Shown here in pieces: positions 1,880-20,008 of a stretch of DNA of 20,035 nt; position 1 is the stretch's first letter; every line of letters begins with the position of its first letter. Source of the DNA: Candidatus Altiarchaeota archaeon (GTDB taxonomy: Archaea; Altiarchaeota; Altiarchaeia; IMC4; SCGC-AAA252-I15); contig JAQTQS010000024.1 of the NCBI GenBank assembly GCA_028712125.1, positions 1 to 20,035 of the forward strand. The letters are read 5' to 3'. Below the pieces are notes generated by a model. That model did not search any database. It saw only the letters and a list, made by a program, of their open reading frames with translations, and had not been told where the DNA came from. The translations under genes were made by a program, and so were the position numbers.

Positions 1880-2611
1880 ATGGATTCTTCGTTGATGCGG
1901 TCTTGGGCGGGGATGGCTATTATGTCAGTTTTTTTACTTTGCGCTCTTAGTGCCTTTGCTTGCGCCTCGCAGAAGGCATTTATAGAGGGTTCGGTTACGG
2001 ATACGGCGACCGGCAAGCCTTTTATGAACGTCTCGCTTGACGTGTTCGTCGCTTCCGACCCTTCCAATCCATACGCCACGGTTAGGACTGACGAGAGGGG
2101 GCGCTATAATATCAGCGTTGACGACGGGAATTATGAGATTTACGTGCGCGTCGGCGCGACAAACCCGCGGCAGTCGGTGTATGTACACGCAGGGGAGATT
2201 CAGCAGTTGAACTTCAAGATTAGCATGAAGTCTATTAGCGAGGAGCAGCTTTCCAGCAACTGGATGTTCTGGGTGCAGGTCGGGATTGCTGCGCTCATTA
2301 TAGGAATCATCGCGGTTGACCAATTGTTCTTCAAGCGAAAGCGCGTGCTCAGCGACCTTGCCGCGGAGCGTGGCAGGCTTGAGGCCGAGCTGAAGAAGGG
2401 CGAGGAGGGCGGGCAGGATGATTTGGGGAAATTGCGCAAGGACCGCAGCCAGCTGGAGTACATGATTAACCTGACGAGGACGAAGTATCACCAGAGGAGC
2501 ATTAATGAGGAGAGTTTCAGGGAGATTATCCGGGATTATCAGGAGAAGCTGATTGAGGTGGAGGCCCGTATTGCCGCGCTTGAGGCCGAGAAGAAGGATG
2601 TCGTGAAGTAG
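1880..2611 (+). CDS. Membrane protein with signal peptide, carboxypeptidase-regulatory-like (CarbopepD_reg/Ig-like beta-sandwich) extracytoplasmic domain, one TM helix and a cytoplasmic coiled-coil tail
   Basis: The N-terminus (MRSWAGMAIMSVFLLCALSAFACAS) is signal-peptide like. GSVTDTATGKPFMNVSLDVF...RTDERGRYNISVDDGNYEIYVRV matches the CarbopepD_reg_2 consensus (GxVxD..tGxPl..a.V........tD..G.Y.f..l..G.Y.l). The hydrophobic stretch WMFWVQVGIAALIIGIIAV is followed by KRKR and then an E/K/R/L-rich heptad-like segment (RLEAELKKGEE...LIEVEARIAALEAEKK). A TATA-like tcatatactt lies about 25 bp upstream. A T-rich terminator follows the stop. Confidence 0.7.
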   Translation: MDSSLMRSWAGMAIMSVFLLCALSAFACASQKAFIEGSVTDTATGKPFMNVSLDVFVASDPSNPYATVRTDERGRYNISVDDGNYEIYVRVGATNPRQSVYVHAGEIQQLNFKISMKSISEEQLSSNWMFWVQVGIAALIIGIIAVDQLFFKRKRVLSDLAAERGRLEAELKKGEEGGQDDLGKLRKDRSQLEYMINLTRTKYHQRSINEESFREIIRDYQEKLIEVEARIAALEAEKKDVVK

Positions 2612-8812: not shown

Positions 8813-9613
8813 ATGGCAGTCGAAGACGTTTGCGGGACGATTTTCTCCCTTGTGTTCATGATAATCCCGCTGATGGTCTTTTTCATACCCGGCCTGCTTT
8901 TCGTCCTCGGCATCCTTGGGACTTTCATAAAGGTCATAGCCCAGTACGAGCGCGGCATACTCTTCGCCTTCGGTCGTTTCGTGGACGTGCGAAAACCGGG
9001 CCTGAACATCATCATACCGTTCTACAACCGGATGGAAATCATCGACATGCGGATTAACACGCTCGACGTCCCGAAGCAGGAGGTCATGACCAAGGACAGC
9101 GTGCCGGTGAAAATAAACGCGGTGATATACTTCAGGGTGAAAGACCCGAAGAGAGCACTCCGGAACGTCGAGAACTACATGTACGCGGTCGCCAAATACG
9201 GGCAGACGGCGCTGCGAAACGTGGCGGGCGATGCGACACTGGACGCGCTCCTGAGCGAAAGAAAGGAGATAGCCGAAAAGCTTCGCCAGATAGTCGACGT
9301 CGCGACCGAACCTTGGGGGATAGACGTCACATACCTCGAGCTGCAGGACATAGAGCTTCCGGAAAGCCTCAAGCGCACGATGGCCAAGCAGGCCGAGGCC
9401 GAGCGGGAGAAGAGGTCAGTCATAATCGCCTCCGAGGGCGAGGTCATAGCCTCAGACAACCTTGTGAAAGCCGCGAACATCCTCTACAACGTGAAGGGCG
9501 CGCTGCACCTCCGGACGCTTAACGCCCTCAACGACATCAGCTCTGACGAGACCAACAAGGTCGTGTTCGTAGTCCCCTTGGAAGTATTGCGGGCGCTGGA
9601 GGAGGTGGACTAA
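8813..9613 (+). CDS. Stomatin-family SPFH/band-7 protein, membrane-anchored (266 aa)
   Basis: The N-terminal hydrophobic helix (IFSLVFMIIPLMVFFIPGLLFVLGILGTFI) is followed by the stomatin core IAQYERGILFAFGRF...PKQEVMTKDSVPVKINAVIYFRV...AKYGQTALRNV...LLSERKEIAEKLRQ...ELQDIELPESLKRTMAKQAEAEREKR...GALHLRTLNAL. Confidence 0.88.
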   Translation: MAVEDVCGTIFSLVFMIIPLMVFFIPGLLFVLGILGTFIKVIAQYERGILFAFGRFVDVRKPGLNIIIPFYNRMEIIDMRINTLDVPKQEVMTKDSVPVKINAVIYFRVKDPKRALRNVENYMYAVAKYGQTALRNVAGDATLDALLSERKEIAEKLRQIVDVATEPWGIDVTYLELQDIELPESLKRTMAKQAEAEREKRSVIIASEGEVIASDNLVKAANILYNVKGALHLRTLNALNDISSDETNKVVFVVPLEVLRALEEVD

Positions 9614-9615
9614 AG

Positions 9616-10359
9616 ATGGGCCTTTCATTATTCAAAATAATCAACCAGTACGAGAGAGGAGTATTATTCGCCTTCGGGGAGTATGAAGGCATGCGCGAGC
9701 CCGGCTTCAATTTCCTCATACCGATTTACCACGACCTTGTCATCGTCGACACGCGCATCAAGACGGTGGACATCCCGAAACAGGAGGTCATGACAAGGGA
9801 CAACGTGCCGGTCATGATAAACGCGGTCGTCTACTTCAGGATAGAGCAGCCGGAAAAGGCAGTAATTGAAGTCCGCGACGTAATCTACGCGGTCTCGAAA
9901 TACGCCCAGACAAGCCTGCGCAACGTCACAGGCCAGGCAACCCTTGACGAGCTATTGTCGGCCCGCCAGAAAATCGCAGAAAAACTCAGGGAGATAGTTG
10001 ACGTCGTAACACAGCAGTGGGGCGTGGACGTCACGGCCATCGAACTCCAGGACATCGAACTGCCTGAAGACCTGAAGAGGACGATGGCCAAACAGGCCGA
10101 GGCCGAGCGGGAGAAGCGTGCGGTAATCCTCAACAGCGAGGGAGAGGTCGGCGCTGCCGAGAACATTGCGAAGGCCGCCAAGAAATTGTACGCGGCCCCG
10201 GGAGCGCTGCACCTGCGGACTTTGCACACTATCAATGACATAAGCTCTGACAAATCGCAGACGGTGATTTACGCACTGCCGATAGAGGTTCTCAGGGCTG
10301 TTGAACGGCTGGTAGACCTGCTGGAGATAAAGACAGGGCAAAGGCAGACTAAAAAGTAG
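9616..10359 (+). CDS. Stomatin-family SPFH/band-7 paralog lacking an N-terminal TM helix (247 aa)
   Basis: It starts 2 nt after the stop of the first stomatin. It has the same domain order (NQYERGVLFAFGEY...PKQEVMTRDNVPVMINAVVYFRI...ELQDIELPEDLKRTMAKQAEAEREKR...GALHLRTL). There is no hydrophobic segment before the SPFH core. A 36-nt stretch (10081..10116) is identical to 9378..9413 at 35 of 36 positions. Confidence 0.88.
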   Translation: MGLSLFKIINQYERGVLFAFGEYEGMREPGFNFLIPIYHDLVIVDTRIKTVDIPKQEVMTRDNVPVMINAVVYFRIEQPEKAVIEVRDVIYAVSKYAQTSLRNVTGQATLDELLSARQKIAEKLREIVDVVTQQWGVDVTAIELQDIELPEDLKRTMAKQAEAEREKRAVILNSEGEVGAAENIAKAAKKLYAAPGALHLRTLHTINDISSDKSQTVIYALPIEVLRAVERLVDLLEIKTGQRQTKK

Positions 10360-13603: not shown

Positions 13604-14446
13604 CTACGGTTCGGTGCTTGTTTCCTCGTTTGCATACGTGGAAATGTCGAACAGCATGTTGCTTCCCCCGCCGTTGACCATCACCTTCGGCAGGTGGCCG
13701 TCCCATTTCTCGGCAATCGTCAGCGGAATCAGCTTCTCGTTCTGCTTCAATGCCTCGGCACGTATGGATATCGCCTCAGCTTCGGCCTTTGCACGGATTA
13801 CCGTCTGGTTGGCCTCGACCCTTATCCTCTCGAGGTCCCGGTCGGCCTTGAGCTTAAGCTGCTCGGCCGTGACCTTCGCCTCTATCGCGTCGTTGAAGGA
13901 CCTGCTGAACTGGAAGTTCGTGATTGACATCGTCTCCACGAGGATGTAGCGCGGGGCCAGCTTTTGGCTGATGGACTCCCTTATCTTCACGGCGACGTCA
14001 TCCCTCTTGGTTATCAGTTCTTCGGCCGTGAATTGCGCCGTGATTGCCTTCACGCTCTCCTTGATGGCGGGGTCTATGACAGTTAATTCATAGCCGGGGC
14101 CTATCTCCTGGAACACCCTCTGGGCGGCGTCGGGCGAGATGTGGTAGTTTAACGCGATTGCCGTGTTCACAATCTGCATGTCCTTCGAGCTTGCTTCGGT
14201 CGTGTCCTCCATCTTCTGCGTCTTGATGTTGATGATGACGACGGACTGCACCAGCGGCATCTTAACGTGTATCCCCTCGGTGTAGGAGTACTGCGCGACT
14301 TCGCCGAACGTCATCAAAACGCCCCTCTCCCCGGGGCCGACGATGAAGTAACAGTTCCTCAACAGGGTTACGAATATTACCGCGGCTATTAATCCTATCA
14401 ATAGTCTTAATGCCGGGCTCATTGGTTCGTCAAATTTTGCTGTCAT
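13604..14446 (-). CDS. Prohibitin/HflC-like SPFH (band 7) membrane protein, 280 aa
   Basis: An N-terminal TM helix (LRLLIGLIAAVIFVTLL) is followed by an SPFH core (FIVGPGERGVLMTFGEV...IKTQKMEDTTEASSKDMQIV...AQFTAEELITKRDDV) and a C-terminal coiled coil (AEQLKLKADRDLERIRVEANQTVIRAKAEAEAISIRAEALKQNEK). Confidence 0.8.
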   Translation of the reverse strand: MTAKFDEPMSPALRLLIGLIAAVIFVTLLRNCYFIVGPGERGVLMTFGEVAQYSYTEGIHVKMPLVQSVVIINIKTQKMEDTTEASSKDMQIVNTAIALNYHISPDAAQRVFQEIGPGYELTVIDPAIKESVKAITAQFTAEELITKRDDVAVKIRESISQKLAPRYILVETMSITNFQFSRSFNDAIEAKVTAEQLKLKADRDLERIRVEANQTVIRAKAEAEAISIRAEALKQNEKLIPLTIAEKWDGHLPKVMVNGGGSNMLFDISTYANEETSTEP

Positions 14447-18063: not shown

Positions 18064-18894
18064 TTAGGTCGGGGATATGGTGGCGTTCGGCAGCTGCTTC
18101 TGGAGCTCTTCCATCTGCTTTCTGGCAATCTCAACGTCGGTGAGGCATTCAGACTGGGTGGTCTTGTTCTGTATGAGCGTGCATAGGTCGAAGTTTATCT
18201 TCTTGGCTGCTACGGTCTTGTAGCATTGGTCCTTGGTCGGCGTCGCGCGGACGCTTGCGCATGTCTTTGCGTCGGGGTTGAGGGCGGCAACCTTCGTATA
18301 GCACCAGTCTTTGCTGTTCTGGTCGGTGATTTCGTCGCAGTAGATGCTGCTCTTGTTGACGAGCGCAAGGCAGGTGTTCATCGAAGCCTGTGACGCTATG
18401 AGCCGGCAGGTTGCAAGGTCCTTTTTGTCTGATGCAATCCGGTAGTAGCATGAGTCCTTCTGCGGGATGTCGGCTATTCCCGAACATGTTTCCTTGTTCA
18501 GGGTCTCTATCGCGACGTCGCGCAGGCACTCGTCCTTACCAAGGCCGTCCTCGACGCGCGCGCAAAGAACGCTTTCGCCTGCCAGCTTTGCCACCGCCTT
18601 AAAGCAGTCGTCCTTGAAAGGCTGCAATTCTATCAAATCGCACAATGTGGAATTCACCGTGTTAGTGGCCGTGGTGAAATAGCATTTCGAACGGGCGCTC
18701 GCGTTCGCAAGCCCCCCGCAGCCCGCATCCGACACGACACAGGGCCCGCAAGGTCCGCCGCAGTCTATGCCAGTCTCCCCCTGGTTTAACACTCCGTCTT
18801 TGCACGACGGCGCTGACGGCCGGCTTGCGTTGAAGGCCAGGTATGACGCTATTGCGGCTATGGCGATGAGTATTGCCGCGTGTTGGATTTTCAT
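18064..18894 (-). CDS. Secreted cysteine-rich tandem-repeat protein (276 aa)
   Basis: A signal peptide (MKIQHAAILIAIAAIASYLAFNA) is followed by an N-terminal Cys cluster (CKDG..NQGETGIDCGGPCGPC....GCGG). Seven 26-residue repeats follow, each with 2 Cys of consensus KDxC[YF]xx[VI]A...x...[TL]Cxx[IV]. The Cys at residues 71-250 are spaced alternately 14 and 12. The tail is Q/E/K-rich. A TATA-like promoter lies in the 46-bp gap upstream. Confidence 0.7.
   Translation of the reverse strand: MKIQHAAILIAIAAIASYLAFNASRPSAPSCKDGVLNQGETGIDCGGPCGPCVVSDAGCGGLANASARSKCYFTTATNTVNSTLCDLIELQPFKDDCFKAVAKLAGESVLCARVEDGLGKDECLRDVAIETLNKETCSGIADIPQKDSCYYRIASDKKDLATCRLIASQASMNTCLALVNKSSIYCDEITDQNSKDWCYTKVAALNPDAKTCASVRATPTKDQCYKTVAAKKINFDLCTLIQNKTTQSECLTDVEIARKQMEELQKQLPNATISPT
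18139..18690 (-). repeat. Seven tandem 78-nt (26-codon) coding repeats of the Cys-rich protein
   Basis: Protein-level periodicity is very regular. A recurring gtcctt (the KD codons read on the plus strand) appears about every 78 nt. DNA-level identity between repeats is low, so the repeats are ancient rather than recently expanded. Confidence 0.6.
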
Positions 18895-18940
18895 TTTTGC
18901 CTATATGTATGGGGGATGGGGCTTATAAATCAGTTTAGGG

Positions 18941-20008
18941 TCAGTGACGGTTGGTCTCGAACACTATGCCGTCGGCCGCGTCAAGGTAGTAGTAGTTGCC
19001 GCGGTCGCTTGTGAATACCGTCGGTTCGCCGGTTATTCCTTCGCCGCCTTCGGATGATACGACGACCCACAGGCCGTAGTAGTGCTTTAGCGGGAGGTTC
19101 AGGTCGAGGTTGTCGGTCTGGTTGAAGAGGTATGAGTCGTTTGTGAGGAGCCTTATGTTTTCGGCCAGAAAGTCCATGCTCCACAGGTCGTTTAGGACGT
19201 TGTCGGCGTACTGTTCTTTTTGCGGGTAGAAGTAGAGGCTTAGCGGTGAGCGGGGAGGGATGTAGTAGGATAGTATGCCGGACGACGGCGTTTTTCCGGC
19301 AGAGTATATGGCTTCGTTTTGGGAGGTGTAGGAGTCGCCGGCAAGCGCGCTTGCCTTGATGAATGCGGACGCGGTGATTATGAGGAGCGCTGCGAGGAGG
19401 AATTTGAATTGAGCGCTCCGGATGTTTTGCCGGAACTCGCTCTGGTTTAGAGAGCGGATGCGGGCCAGCACGAAGACCATTATCCCGAAGCCGAATATCA
19501 GGCCGGTGATTATCCTCAGGGCGTTGTTGCTCTCGCGGAGGTTGAATATAGTCTGCGTAACGCCGTCCAGCGCTATCGGGATTGTCGCCATGACGAGGAA
19601 TTTCTTGGTCTTAAGGAAGGATGGCACGCCCTTCAGGAAGACGAATCCCCCTATGACTATCCCAAGGTATATGCCGGCGTCGCGGGCGCAGACCGCCTGC
19701 TGGACTCCGTTTATGAACAGCGAGCGCATCGGGAGCTGGTGGCACATCATCAGCCCGGACACTATGTTGTATGCGAGCGCGCCCATGCCAAGGAGTATGC
19801 GGTTTTCAGACCGGATGAGAACCGGGCTTGCTAGCACGAGAAGCACGAAGGAGAGGAATACCATGAACAGCCATGCGTAAAAAAGATGCTTAACCCAAAG
19901 GACGGCCCGAGAGAGTGACGTTTCCGCGTCATAGCGCGCCTTGTCGAACGTTTTCTGTTCGTACATGGCGTCGAGCTTGTCAGCCATCCGGTCGAATAAT
20001 CTTGCCAT
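18941..20008 (-). CDS. DUF2085-domain membrane protein with a C-terminal extracytoplasmic domain (355 aa)
   Basis: CHQLPMRSLFINGVQQAVCARDAGIYLGIVIGGFV matches the DUF2085 signature (CHQ.PeRSF...G.q.pVCARCtGiY.G). There are 5 or more TM helices, then a soluble Y/N/S-rich C-terminal domain. Confidence 0.6.
   Translation of the reverse strand: MARLFDRMADKLDAMYEQKTFDKARYDAETSLSRAVLWVKHLFYAWLFMVFLSFVLLVLASPVLIRSENRILLGMGALAYNIVSGLMMCHQLPMRSLFINGVQQAVCARDAGIYLGIVIGGFVFLKGVPSFLKTKKFLVMATIPIALDGVTQTIFNLRESNNALRIITGLIFGFGIMVFVLARIRSLNQSEFRQNIRSAQFKFLLAALLIITASAFIKASALAGDSYTSQNEAIYSAGKTPSSGILSYYIPPRSPLSLYFYPQKEQYADNVLNDLWSMDFLAENIRLLTNDSYLFNQTDNLDLNLPLKHYYGLWVVVSSEGGEGITGEPTVFTSDRGNYYYLDAADGIVFETNRH

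What the first reader, a model, noticed from the sequence alone, without database searches (positions are those of the whole stretch)
18064..20008. A secreted protein built from seven precise 26-residue two-cysteine repeats, downstream of a DUF2085 membrane protein
After a signal peptide and an N-terminal Cys knot (CKDG...GETGIDCGGPCGPC...GCGG), the Cys positions are 71, 85, 97, 111, 123, 137, 149, 163, 175, 186, 197, 212, 224, 238 and 250. Their spacings alternate 14 and 12. This defines seven KDxC[YF]xx[VI]A...[TL]C repeats, likely a disulfide-stapled solenoid or beta-hairpin stack, with 20 Cys in 250 mature residues. I do not recognise this repeat as a named family. It sits 46 bp downstream of a DUF2085 polytopic membrane protein on the same strand and has its own TATA-like box. 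It may be a surface, adhesion or metal-binding protein.
Basis: seen in the sequence. Interest (0 to 1): 0.6.

Follow-up and report, generated by a model that had tools for sequence, protein, structure and literature searches.

The report
Cysteine-stapled helical repeat surface protein
This archaeal gene encodes an exported protein built from 26-residue, two-cysteine helical repeats that belong to a large, widespread repeat family missing from the standard protein-family and structure databases; its function is still unknown.

Summary
ORF 18064-18894 (-) encodes a 276-aa protein with 20 Cys. After an N-terminal hydrophobic helix and a 4-Cys module, 16 Cys alternate at spacings of 14 and 12 (one 11; Cys198, not 197). 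The period of 26 is far beyond chance.

AlphaFold2 (pLDDT >95 over residues 60-267) predicts an all-alpha solenoid, not a beta-hairpin stack. Each unit is a 15-residue helix plus a short helix, each carrying one Cys.

The repeat itself is common. Exhaustive HMMER finds 4402 cluster representatives for the protein's two modules together. Relatives carry 3 to about 25 units, and most have lipoprotein or membrane-anchor N-termini. The N-terminal CxDGxxNQGExGxDCGGxCxxC module is a separate, equally unannotated extracellular module.

The window is a contig of a Candidatus Altiarchaeota MAG. DUF2085 adjacency is kept only inside that clade's GatB-DUF2085-X-TyrRS synteny block. It is lost or interrupted in some members, and the gene has its own conserved TATA box.

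Best reading: a membrane-tethered or secreted, probably disulfide-stapled, alpha-solenoid binding scaffold. It is a new variant of a known kind, of moderate interest.

The parts
18064..18894 (-). Gene for the 276-aa Cys-repeat protein (stop codon 18064-18066)
   Evidence: ORF list. Orthologs at 32-54% identity sit in the same syntenic position.
18823..18894 (-). Residues 1-24: N-terminal hydrophobic helix, either a signal peptide or an uncleaved signal anchor. There is no lipobox Cys.
   Evidence: AF2 helix 3-23. Relatives mostly have a signal peptide plus lipobox or an N-terminal TM segment. The L025 ortholog has FIAGC.
18739..18804 (-). Residues 31-52: 4-Cys module CKDGVLNQGETGIDCGGPCGPC, a mobile extracellular module
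   Evidence: Many of the listed phmmer hits align only to query residues ~26-55, with up to 39 copies per protein. Carrier proteins have T9SS tails, M43 peptidase, CAP and lectin domains. No Pfam, NCBIfam or PDB model. AF2 pLDDT is only ~53 here.
18700..18726 (-). Residues 57-65: leading half unit (short helix with invariant C59)
   Evidence: C59 is invariant in alignments A1, A2 and A7. AF2 helix 59-61.
18622..18699 (-). Repeat unit 1 (residues 66-91; C71, C85)
18544..18621 (-). Repeat unit 2 (residues 92-117; C97, C111)
18466..18543 (-). Repeat unit 3 (residues 118-143; C123, C137)
18388..18465 (-). Repeat unit 4 (residues 144-169; C149, C163)
18319..18387 (-). Repeat unit 5, shortened to 23 residues (residues 170-192; C175, C186, spacing 11)
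   Evidence: The shortening is conserved in the closest orthologs (P0001 and P0006 show the same spacing of 11).
18241..18318 (-). Repeat unit 6 (residues 193-218; C198, C212)
18163..18240 (-). Repeat unit 7 (residues 219-244; C224, C238)
18094..18162 (-). Residues 245-267: capping half unit, a long C-terminal helix carrying C250 (ECLTDVEIARKQMEELQKQL)
   Evidence: AF2 helix 244-267. Conserved in full-length orthologs.
18923..18929 (-). TATA-box-like TTTATAA, centred 32 nt upstream of the ATG
   Evidence: TTTATAA or TTTTTAAA sits at the equivalent place in L001, L011 and L013.
18902..18910 (-). Conserved ATACATATA motif just upstream of the ATG; probable initiator region, implying a leaderless or very short-leader mRNA
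   Evidence: ATACATATA in L001 and L013, ATACCTTATA in L011.
18941..20008 (-). Upstream neighbour: 355-aa long-form DUF2085 membrane protein. Pfam domain at residues 89-178 (19475-19744). C-terminal extracytoplasmic alpha/beta domain at residues ~227-355 (18944-19330).

Best explanation
The gene encodes an exported protein of a Candidatus Altiarchaeota archaeon.

Architecture, from N to C terminus:
- an N-terminal hydrophobic helix (signal peptide or signal anchor);
- one copy of a small 4-Cys extracellular module (CxDGxxNQGExGxDCGGxCxxC);
- a rigid right-to-left stack of 7.5 alpha-helical repeat units of 26 residues, ending in a long capping helix.

Each unit is a 15-residue helix with a Cys at its 7th position, a turn, and a 4-6-residue helix with a second Cys.

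The residues conserved across the family are xx[KR]DxC[YLFI]xx[VIL]Axxxx[DN]xx[LIV]CxxIx[DN]x. These are the hydrophobic core, the helix N-caps and the two Cys, so they are structural and not catalytic. I infer that the 16 repeat Cys form eight disulfides that staple neighbouring helices. The most likely pairing is short helix n to long helix n+1, the C-x11-C pairs 59-71, 85-97 ... 238-250. I also infer that the 4 Cys of the N-terminal module form two more disulfides.

The product would be a stiff, oxidation-stabilised alpha-solenoid on the outer face of the cytoplasmic membrane. Its variable surface would act as a binding or spacing scaffold for a protein, glycan or envelope partner, as other alpha/alpha solenoids do.

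Status of each step:
- Shown: the repeat, the family, the lack of annotation, and the export signals in relatives.
- Predicted with high confidence: the all-alpha solenoid fold.
- Inferred: the disulfides and their pairing, the tethering, and the scaffold function.
For: Periodicity and Cys pattern.

Family size and shape: 4402 representatives at E<=1e-3, counting both modules of the query. 89 of the 163 fetched proteins are repeat-class. Relatives carry 3-25 units. The consensus comes from 663 exact units.

Extracytoplasmic location: at least 50 of 89 relatives have a signal peptide plus lipobox, and others have N-terminal TM anchors. The syntenic ortholog in L025 has FIAGC. The N-terminal module co-occurs with T9SS sorting tails, M43 peptidase, CAP and lectin domains. 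The window protein has 6 N-x-S/T sequons.

Disulfide pairing: there are 16 repeat Cys, with C59 invariant and C250 conserved in all full-length orthologs. All eight 12-spacings are exact, while one 14-spacing is 11. Among 135 Cys chains, 50 start with a short-helix Cys and end with a long-helix Cys, against 19 of the opposite type.

Precedent: disulfides within alpha/alpha repeats are known in HcpB, HcpC and COA7 (PMC8892353).

Independent transcription: the TATA box and initiator-like motif are conserved in four loci.
Against: - No coordinates were available, so S-S distances in the model could not be measured. The A->B spacing (14 in 94% of units) is more rigid family-wide than B->A' (12 in 72%), which would also fit intra-unit pairs.
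- Co-loss tests of Cys were uninformative.
- Altiarchaeota are anaerobes, and no disulfide-forming machinery was examined.
- No ligand, partner or recurrent gene neighbour was found in distant relatives, so the scaffold function rests on analogy with other solenoids.
- Signal-peptide cleavage versus signal anchor was not computed.
- The AF2 alignment was shallow (15 sequences).
Confidence: 0.6

Rival explanations
1. The protein is a dedicated partner or substrate of the upstream DUF2085 membrane protein. In this reading the two form a two-gene module in which DUF2085 anchors, matures or oxidises the Cys-rich solenoid, perhaps through its extracytoplasmic C-terminal domain.
For: The genes are on the same strand with a 46-bp gap. 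The adjacency persists in loci where both proteins have diverged to about 32-35% identity (L028, L025/L026, L013, L011, L001). DUF2085 has invariant C89-H90-Q91 and nearly invariant C107 near the membrane surface, plus an extracytoplasmic PepSY-like domain.
Against: - All these loci share one housekeeping synteny block (GatB-DUF2085-X-TyrRS-UPF0147), so the adjacency is not independent evidence.
- L016 keeps GatB-DUF2085-TyrRS without the Cys gene.
- In L025 a 240-aa gene and an opposite-strand 83-aa gene lie between the two.
- The Cys gene has its own conserved promoter motifs.
- DUF2085 is instead tightly coupled to GatB.
- Distant repeat-family members never sit next to DUF2085.
Confidence: 0.1
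2. The paired cysteines are metal or cluster ligands, not disulfides. The solenoid would then be an extracellular metal-binding, metal-storage or electron-conduit protein.
For: The protein has 20 Cys in 276 residues, placed at regular intervals. The host lineage lives in anoxic habitats where extracellular thiols could stay reduced (own knowledge; PMC4500143 was listed but not read).
Against: - Each unit has only two Cys, and there are no conserved His or CxxC/CxC motifs in the repeats.
- By geometric inference (no coordinates were available), successive Cys pairs sit one solenoid turn apart, so four-ligand sites are unlikely.
- All other conserved positions are core or helix-cap residues.
- Known metal-binding Cys-rich families were not hit in Pfam.
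Confidence: 0.08
3. The protein is a disulfide-rich beta-hairpin stack or an EGF/TNFR-like array of small Cys knots.
For: High Cys density and short period.
Against: AF2 predicts only helices across residues 59-267 at pLDDT >95. No EGF, TNFR or other Cys-rich Pfam family is hit at E<=1. The top structural neighbours are all alpha solenoids.
Confidence: 0.03

Closest known systems
Helicobacter cysteine-rich proteins HcpB/HcpC and mitochondrial COA7 (Sel1-like repeat proteins with a disulfide in each repeat; PDB 1KLX, 1OUV)
   Same: Exported alpha/alpha solenoids in which each repeat carries a Cys pair that staples helices. This is a scaffold-type fold with no catalytic motif (PMC8892353).
TPR / PPR / HEAT-like and de novo designed helical repeat proteins
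Unnamed family of C-x13-C-x11 repeat proteins in metagenomes (e.g. P0003, P0008, P0035, P0153; Candidatus Iainarchaeum locus L012)
   Same: Same 26-residue unit and consensus, same export signals, E-values down to 1e-52.
   Different: These relatives have 3 to about 25 units, and most lack the N-terminal 4-Cys module and the C-terminal capping helix. The window protein belongs to a fixed-length orthogroup of 250-290 aa. None of the family is annotated.

Membership tests
26-residue C-x13-C-x11 alpha-solenoid repeat family (unnamed; defined here) | Tandem units matching xx[KR]DxC[YLFI]xx[VIL]Axxxx[DN]xx[LIV]CxxIx[DN]x | tested here: met
   An HMM built from 663 units of relatives finds 7 units plus a half unit in the window protein (scores 6.6-24.8). 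phmmer E-values to relatives go down to 1e-52 over residues 59-259.
26-residue C-x13-C-x11 alpha-solenoid repeat family (unnamed; defined here) | N-terminal export signal (signal peptide with lipobox, or TM anchor) | tested here: inconclusive
   The window protein has a hydrophobic N-terminal helix at residues 3-23 but no lipobox Cys. At least 50 of 89 relatives and the L025 ortholog have a lipobox. No signal-peptide predictor was available.
Sel1-like repeat / Hcp family | Match to the Sel1 (PF08238) or TPR profiles; Sel1/TPR-length repeats of two helices of similar length (unit geometry from own knowledge) | tested here: not met
   No Pfam family at E<=1. The period is 26. The helices are 15 and 4-6 residues long.
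Sel1-like repeat / Hcp family | One disulfide per repeat linking helices | not testable with these tools
Cys parity and array termini suggest eight C-x11-C pairs, but this was not measured.
EGF / TNFR-like Cys-rich arrays | Small beta-rich disulfide knots with about 6 Cys per ~40 residues; Pfam EGF or TNFR_c6 match | tested here: not met
   All-alpha prediction, 2 Cys per 26 residues, no Pfam hit.
PPR / TPR / HEAT structural class (alpha/alpha solenoid) | Stacked antiparallel helix pairs forming a superhelix | tested here: met
   [not shown]
DUF2085 (PF09858), for the upstream neighbour | Match to the Pfam model above the gathering score | tested here: met
   90.1 bits against a cutoff of 25, E=1.3e-25, residues 89-178.
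DUF2085 + Cys-repeat two-gene module | Adjacency conserved independently of the surrounding synteny and across lineages | tested here: not met
   Adjacency occurs only inside the Altiarchaeota GatB-DUF2085-X-TyrRS block. It is absent in L016, interrupted in L025, and absent in relatives from other lineages.

The most novel reading that the evidence does not exclude
The 26-residue two-Cys unit defines a large, so far unnamed family of extracytoplasmic, disulfide-stapled alpha-solenoid repeats. An exhaustive search with this two-module protein returned 4402 cluster representatives at 50% identity. Family members are lipoproteins or membrane-anchored surface proteins in small-genome archaea (loci here come from Altiarchaeota and Iainarchaeum MAGs). 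Some members have signal sequences that look bacterial, but that was not tested. Such a family could be a major class of surface adhesion or host-contact scaffolds in these poorly understood organisms.
Probability: 0.5. Interest if true: 0.55.

Novelty: new variant of a known kind. Interest (0 to 1): 0.42.

Why it matters
Uncultivated archaea of the Altiarchaeota and DPANN type have cell envelopes and surface proteomes that consist largely of hypothetical proteins. Here two recurrent extracellular building blocks turn out to have no model in Pfam (2025 copy), NCBIfam (2026) or the PDB:
- the 26-residue two-Cys helical repeat;
- the CGGxC 4-Cys module.

Together the two modules recover thousands of protein clusters. 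Defining them would annotate many surface proteins at once. It would also add a short-period, Cys-stapled solenoid to the repeat-protein repertoire, which is of interest for protein design. Finally, it would give concrete candidates for envelope, adhesion or host-contact functions. The individual gene has no demonstrated function, so the value lies at the family level, not in its mechanism.

Tried and rejected
1. Deciding the disulfide partners by co-loss of Cys. The spacing-pattern test found too few Cys losses. In the HMM-aligned units every detected unit had both Cys. Both tests were uninformative.
2. Foldseek against AFDB50: the library was not available.
3. The search for related loci with the broad alignments A2, A1 and A6 failed because no stretch was conserved enough. 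The narrower A3 and A7 worked.
4. The word-indexed homolog search found only 5-15 relatives. The exhaustive HMMER search was needed.
5. Literature searches for the CGGPC motif, DUF2085, and Cys-rich repeats in Altiarchaeum or DPANN found nothing relevant.
7. A recurrent neighbour gene in distant relatives was looked for in P0153, P0003, P0157, P0002, P0158 and L012. None was found.
8. A recent DNA-level repeat expansion was ruled out: there is no tandem repeat.
Full report
**1. What is in the sequence**

The finding spans two same-strand genes on the minus strand. One is a 355-aa ORF at 18941..20008. The other is a 276-aa ORF at 18064..18894, 46 bp downstream of it.

The 276-aa product has 20 cysteines, at 31, 45, 49, 52, 59, 71, 85, 97, 111, 123, 137, 149, 163, 175, 186, 198, 212, 224, 238 and 250.
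- the Cys is at 198, not 197;
- the 175->186 spacing is 11, so one unit has 23 residues instead of 26.

From C59 to C250 the spacings run 12, 14, 12, 14 and so on. All eight 12-spacings are exact.

The period is well beyond chance. BLOSUM62 autocorrelation peaks at lag 26 (0.60), with further peaks at 52 and 75, against a maximum of -0.04 in 500 shuffles. Of the 15 spacings, 14 are 12 or 14, against at most 6 in 20000 shuffles.

There is no DNA-level tandem repeat, and units share only about 29% identity. The repeats are therefore ancient and individually conserved, not a recent expansion.

**2. Organism and context**

The upstream protein is 100% identical to an NCBI protein named 'MAG: DUF2085 domain-containing protein [Candidatus Altiarchaeota archaeon]', whose longest contig is 20035 bp. 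The window is therefore that whole contig. The remaining genes in the window are typical archaeal housekeeping genes: RNase P p30, UPF0147, DUF373, and the Met-, Tyr- and Val-type tRNA synthetases. GC content is 54%.

**3. Fold**

AlphaFold2 was run on a 15-sequence alignment. Mean pLDDT is 87.7, and it exceeds 95 throughout residues 60-267.

The repeat region is entirely helical. Long helices of about 15 residues (65-79, 91-105, 117-131, 143-157 ...) alternate with short helices of 4-6 residues (82-87, 108-113 ...). Each long helix has a Cys at its 7th residue, and each short helix has one Cys. A short helix carrying C59 leads the array, and a long helix (244-267) carrying C250 caps it.

This is an alpha/alpha solenoid, not a beta-hairpin stack. 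The N-terminal 4-Cys module (residues 25-56) is modelled poorly, at pLDDT about 53.

**4. Comparison with known families**

Sequence searches found nothing:
- Pfam at E<=1: none.
- NCBIfam: none.
- PDB by phmmer or by profile: none significant.

The protein therefore belongs to the alpha-solenoid structural class but to no named sequence family.

**5. The repeat is common but unannotated**

An exhaustive phmmer search of 1.84 billion cluster representatives gave 4402 proteins at E<=1e-3 and 1046 at E<=1e-10. They fall into two classes.

*Class 1* aligns to residues about 59-260. These proteins carry the same C-x13-C-x11 unit in 3 to about 25 copies.
- From 663 exact units the consensus is xx[KR]DxC[YLFI]xx[VIL]Axxxx[DN]xx[LIV]CxxIx[DN]x. 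All conserved positions are core, helix-cap or Cys residues.
- Long-helix Cys to short-helix Cys is 14 in 94% of units. Short-helix Cys to the next long-helix Cys is 12 in 72%, with a variable loop.
- Neither 10 long members, nor a set of 66 members, nor 8 canonical members against NCBIfam hit any repeat model. The only hits were rare accessory extracellular domains: TSP3_bac, fn3, SdrD_B and DUF5667.
- At least 50 of 89 repeat-class proteins have a signal peptide ending in a lipobox Cys. Many others have an N-terminal TM anchor.
- Gene contexts of P0153 and P0003 contain archaeal marker genes, and L012 is a Candidatus Iainarchaeum MAG. The P0157 locus has no diagnostic marker. Some signal sequences look bacterial; this was not tested.

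*Class 2* aligns only to residues about 26-55, the CxDGxxNQGExGxDCGGxCxxC module.
- The module occurs in up to 39 tandem copies, in giant proteins of up to 2818 aa.
- Those proteins carry T9SS sorting tails, M43 peptidase, CAP, C-type lectin, CBM96 or RCC1 domains.
- The module has no Pfam, NCBIfam or PDB match either.

The window protein belongs to a fixed-architecture orthogroup of 250-290 aa: signal, usually one CGGxC module, 7.5 units including the short unit 5, and a C-terminal helix.

**6. Cysteines: disulfides, and which pairs?**

Twenty Cys divide into 4 in the N-terminal module and 16 in the repeats. In the orthogroup, C59 is invariant and C250 is present in all full-length members.

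If pairs were intra-unit (71-85 and so on), C59 and C250 would be left as orphans at opposite ends of the solenoid. If pairs link short helix n to long helix n+1 (59-71, 85-97 ... 238-250), all 16 are used.

Across relatives, 135 Cys chains were examined. Fifty start with a short-helix Cys and end with a long-helix Cys; 19 show the opposite pattern. This favours the C-x11-C pairing.

It is not proof, for three reasons:
- the 14-spacing is the more rigid one family-wide;
- the co-loss tests were uninformative;
- I had no access to the model coordinates.

Disulfides within alpha/alpha repeats have a precedent in HcpB, HcpC and COA7 (PMC8892353). Metal ligation is less likely. Each unit has only two Cys, there is no conserved His or CxxC motif, and successive pairs should lie a full solenoid turn apart.

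**7. DUF2085 linkage**

The upstream protein matches PF09858 at E=1.3e-25. It belongs to an Altiarchaeota-specific long form of about 355 aa.

Where the Cys-repeat ortholog is found:
- It lies downstream of DUF2085 and upstream of a convergent TyrRS in L001-L004, L011, L013, L019-L022, L024 and L028.
- The same arrangement holds with a gap in L025 and L026.
- The two proteins in these loci have diverged to as little as about 32% identity.

However, all these loci share one housekeeping block, GatB-DUF2085-X-TyrRS-UPF0147, in which TyrRS is 65-77% identical. Several observations argue against a specific link:
- In L016 the block is intact but lacks the Cys gene.
- In L025 a 240-aa gene and an opposite-strand 83-aa zinc-ribbon gene lie between the two.
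- Distant family members are never next to DUF2085.
- DUF2085 is instead always abutted by GatB.
- The Cys gene has its own promoter-like elements, conserved in four loci: TTTATAA/TTTTTAAA, and ATACATATA just before the ATG. Their spacing implies a leaderless or near-leaderless mRNA.

The adjacency is therefore lineage synteny, not evidence of a two-gene system.

**8. Interpretation**

The best-supported reading is an exported protein, either membrane-tethered or released. Candidatus Altiarchaeum hamiconexum is reported to have a double membrane (PMC4460559), so in this phylum the protein could be periplasmic.

Its body would be a stiff alpha-solenoid, probably disulfide-stapled, acting as a binding or spacing scaffold. 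The family-level conservation is purely structural, which fits a scaffold with a variable surface and not an enzyme. The ligand is unknown.

**9. Novelty and score**

The kind is known: a Cys-stapled alpha/alpha solenoid on a cell surface. The unit is not in Pfam, NCBIfam or the PDB: 26 residues, one long plus one very short helix, C-x13-C-x11, with its own consensus. Yet the family it defines is large. I rate it a new variant of a known kind. Interest is moderate (0.42), and it lies mainly at the level of family annotation and envelope biology of uncultivated archaea.

Noticed in passing
window 18902-18929 (minus strand); L001, L011, L013 upstream of the orthologous ATG: A TATA-like box (TTTATAA or TTTTTAAA) and an ATACATATA motif directly before the ATG are conserved in four loci whose proteins are only about 50% identical. 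This implies an independent promoter and a leaderless or near-leaderless transcript.
   Followed up: partly
window 18941-20008 (-); L011, L013-L016: The long-form DUF2085 gene is always immediately preceded by gatB, abutting or overlapping it. The window contig ends 27 bp upstream of the DUF2085 start, so gatB is presumably just off the contig. This DUF2085-GatB coupling is more conserved than the DUF2085/Cys-repeat one.
   Followed up: partly
[not shown]
   Followed up: partly
window 18739-18804 (-); proteins P0004, P0005, P0007, P0009 and others: The 4-Cys module CxDGxxNQGExGxDCGGxCxxC has no Pfam, NCBIfam or PDB match. It occurs in up to about 39 tandem copies in giant extracellular proteins of bacteria (with T9SS tails, M43 peptidase, CAP) and archaea. 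In some of these proteins the tandem copies also have a 26-residue period with a C-x13-C spacing, probably by coincidence with the helical repeat.
   Followed up: partly
L025 2527-3509: In one Altiarchaeota lineage, a 240-aa gene of unknown function and an opposite-strand 83-aa zinc-ribbon/TM gene are inserted between DUF2085 and the Cys-repeat ortholog. That ortholog carries a lipobox (FIAGC), unlike the window protein.
   Followed up: no
window 8813-9613 (+), 9616-10359 (+), 13604-14446 (-): Three SPFH/Band_7 paralogs lie within 6 kb, two of them directly tandem.
   Followed up: no
window 1880-2611 (+): A 243-aa ORF with a CarboxypepD_reg-like domain, probably another exported protein.
   Followed up: no
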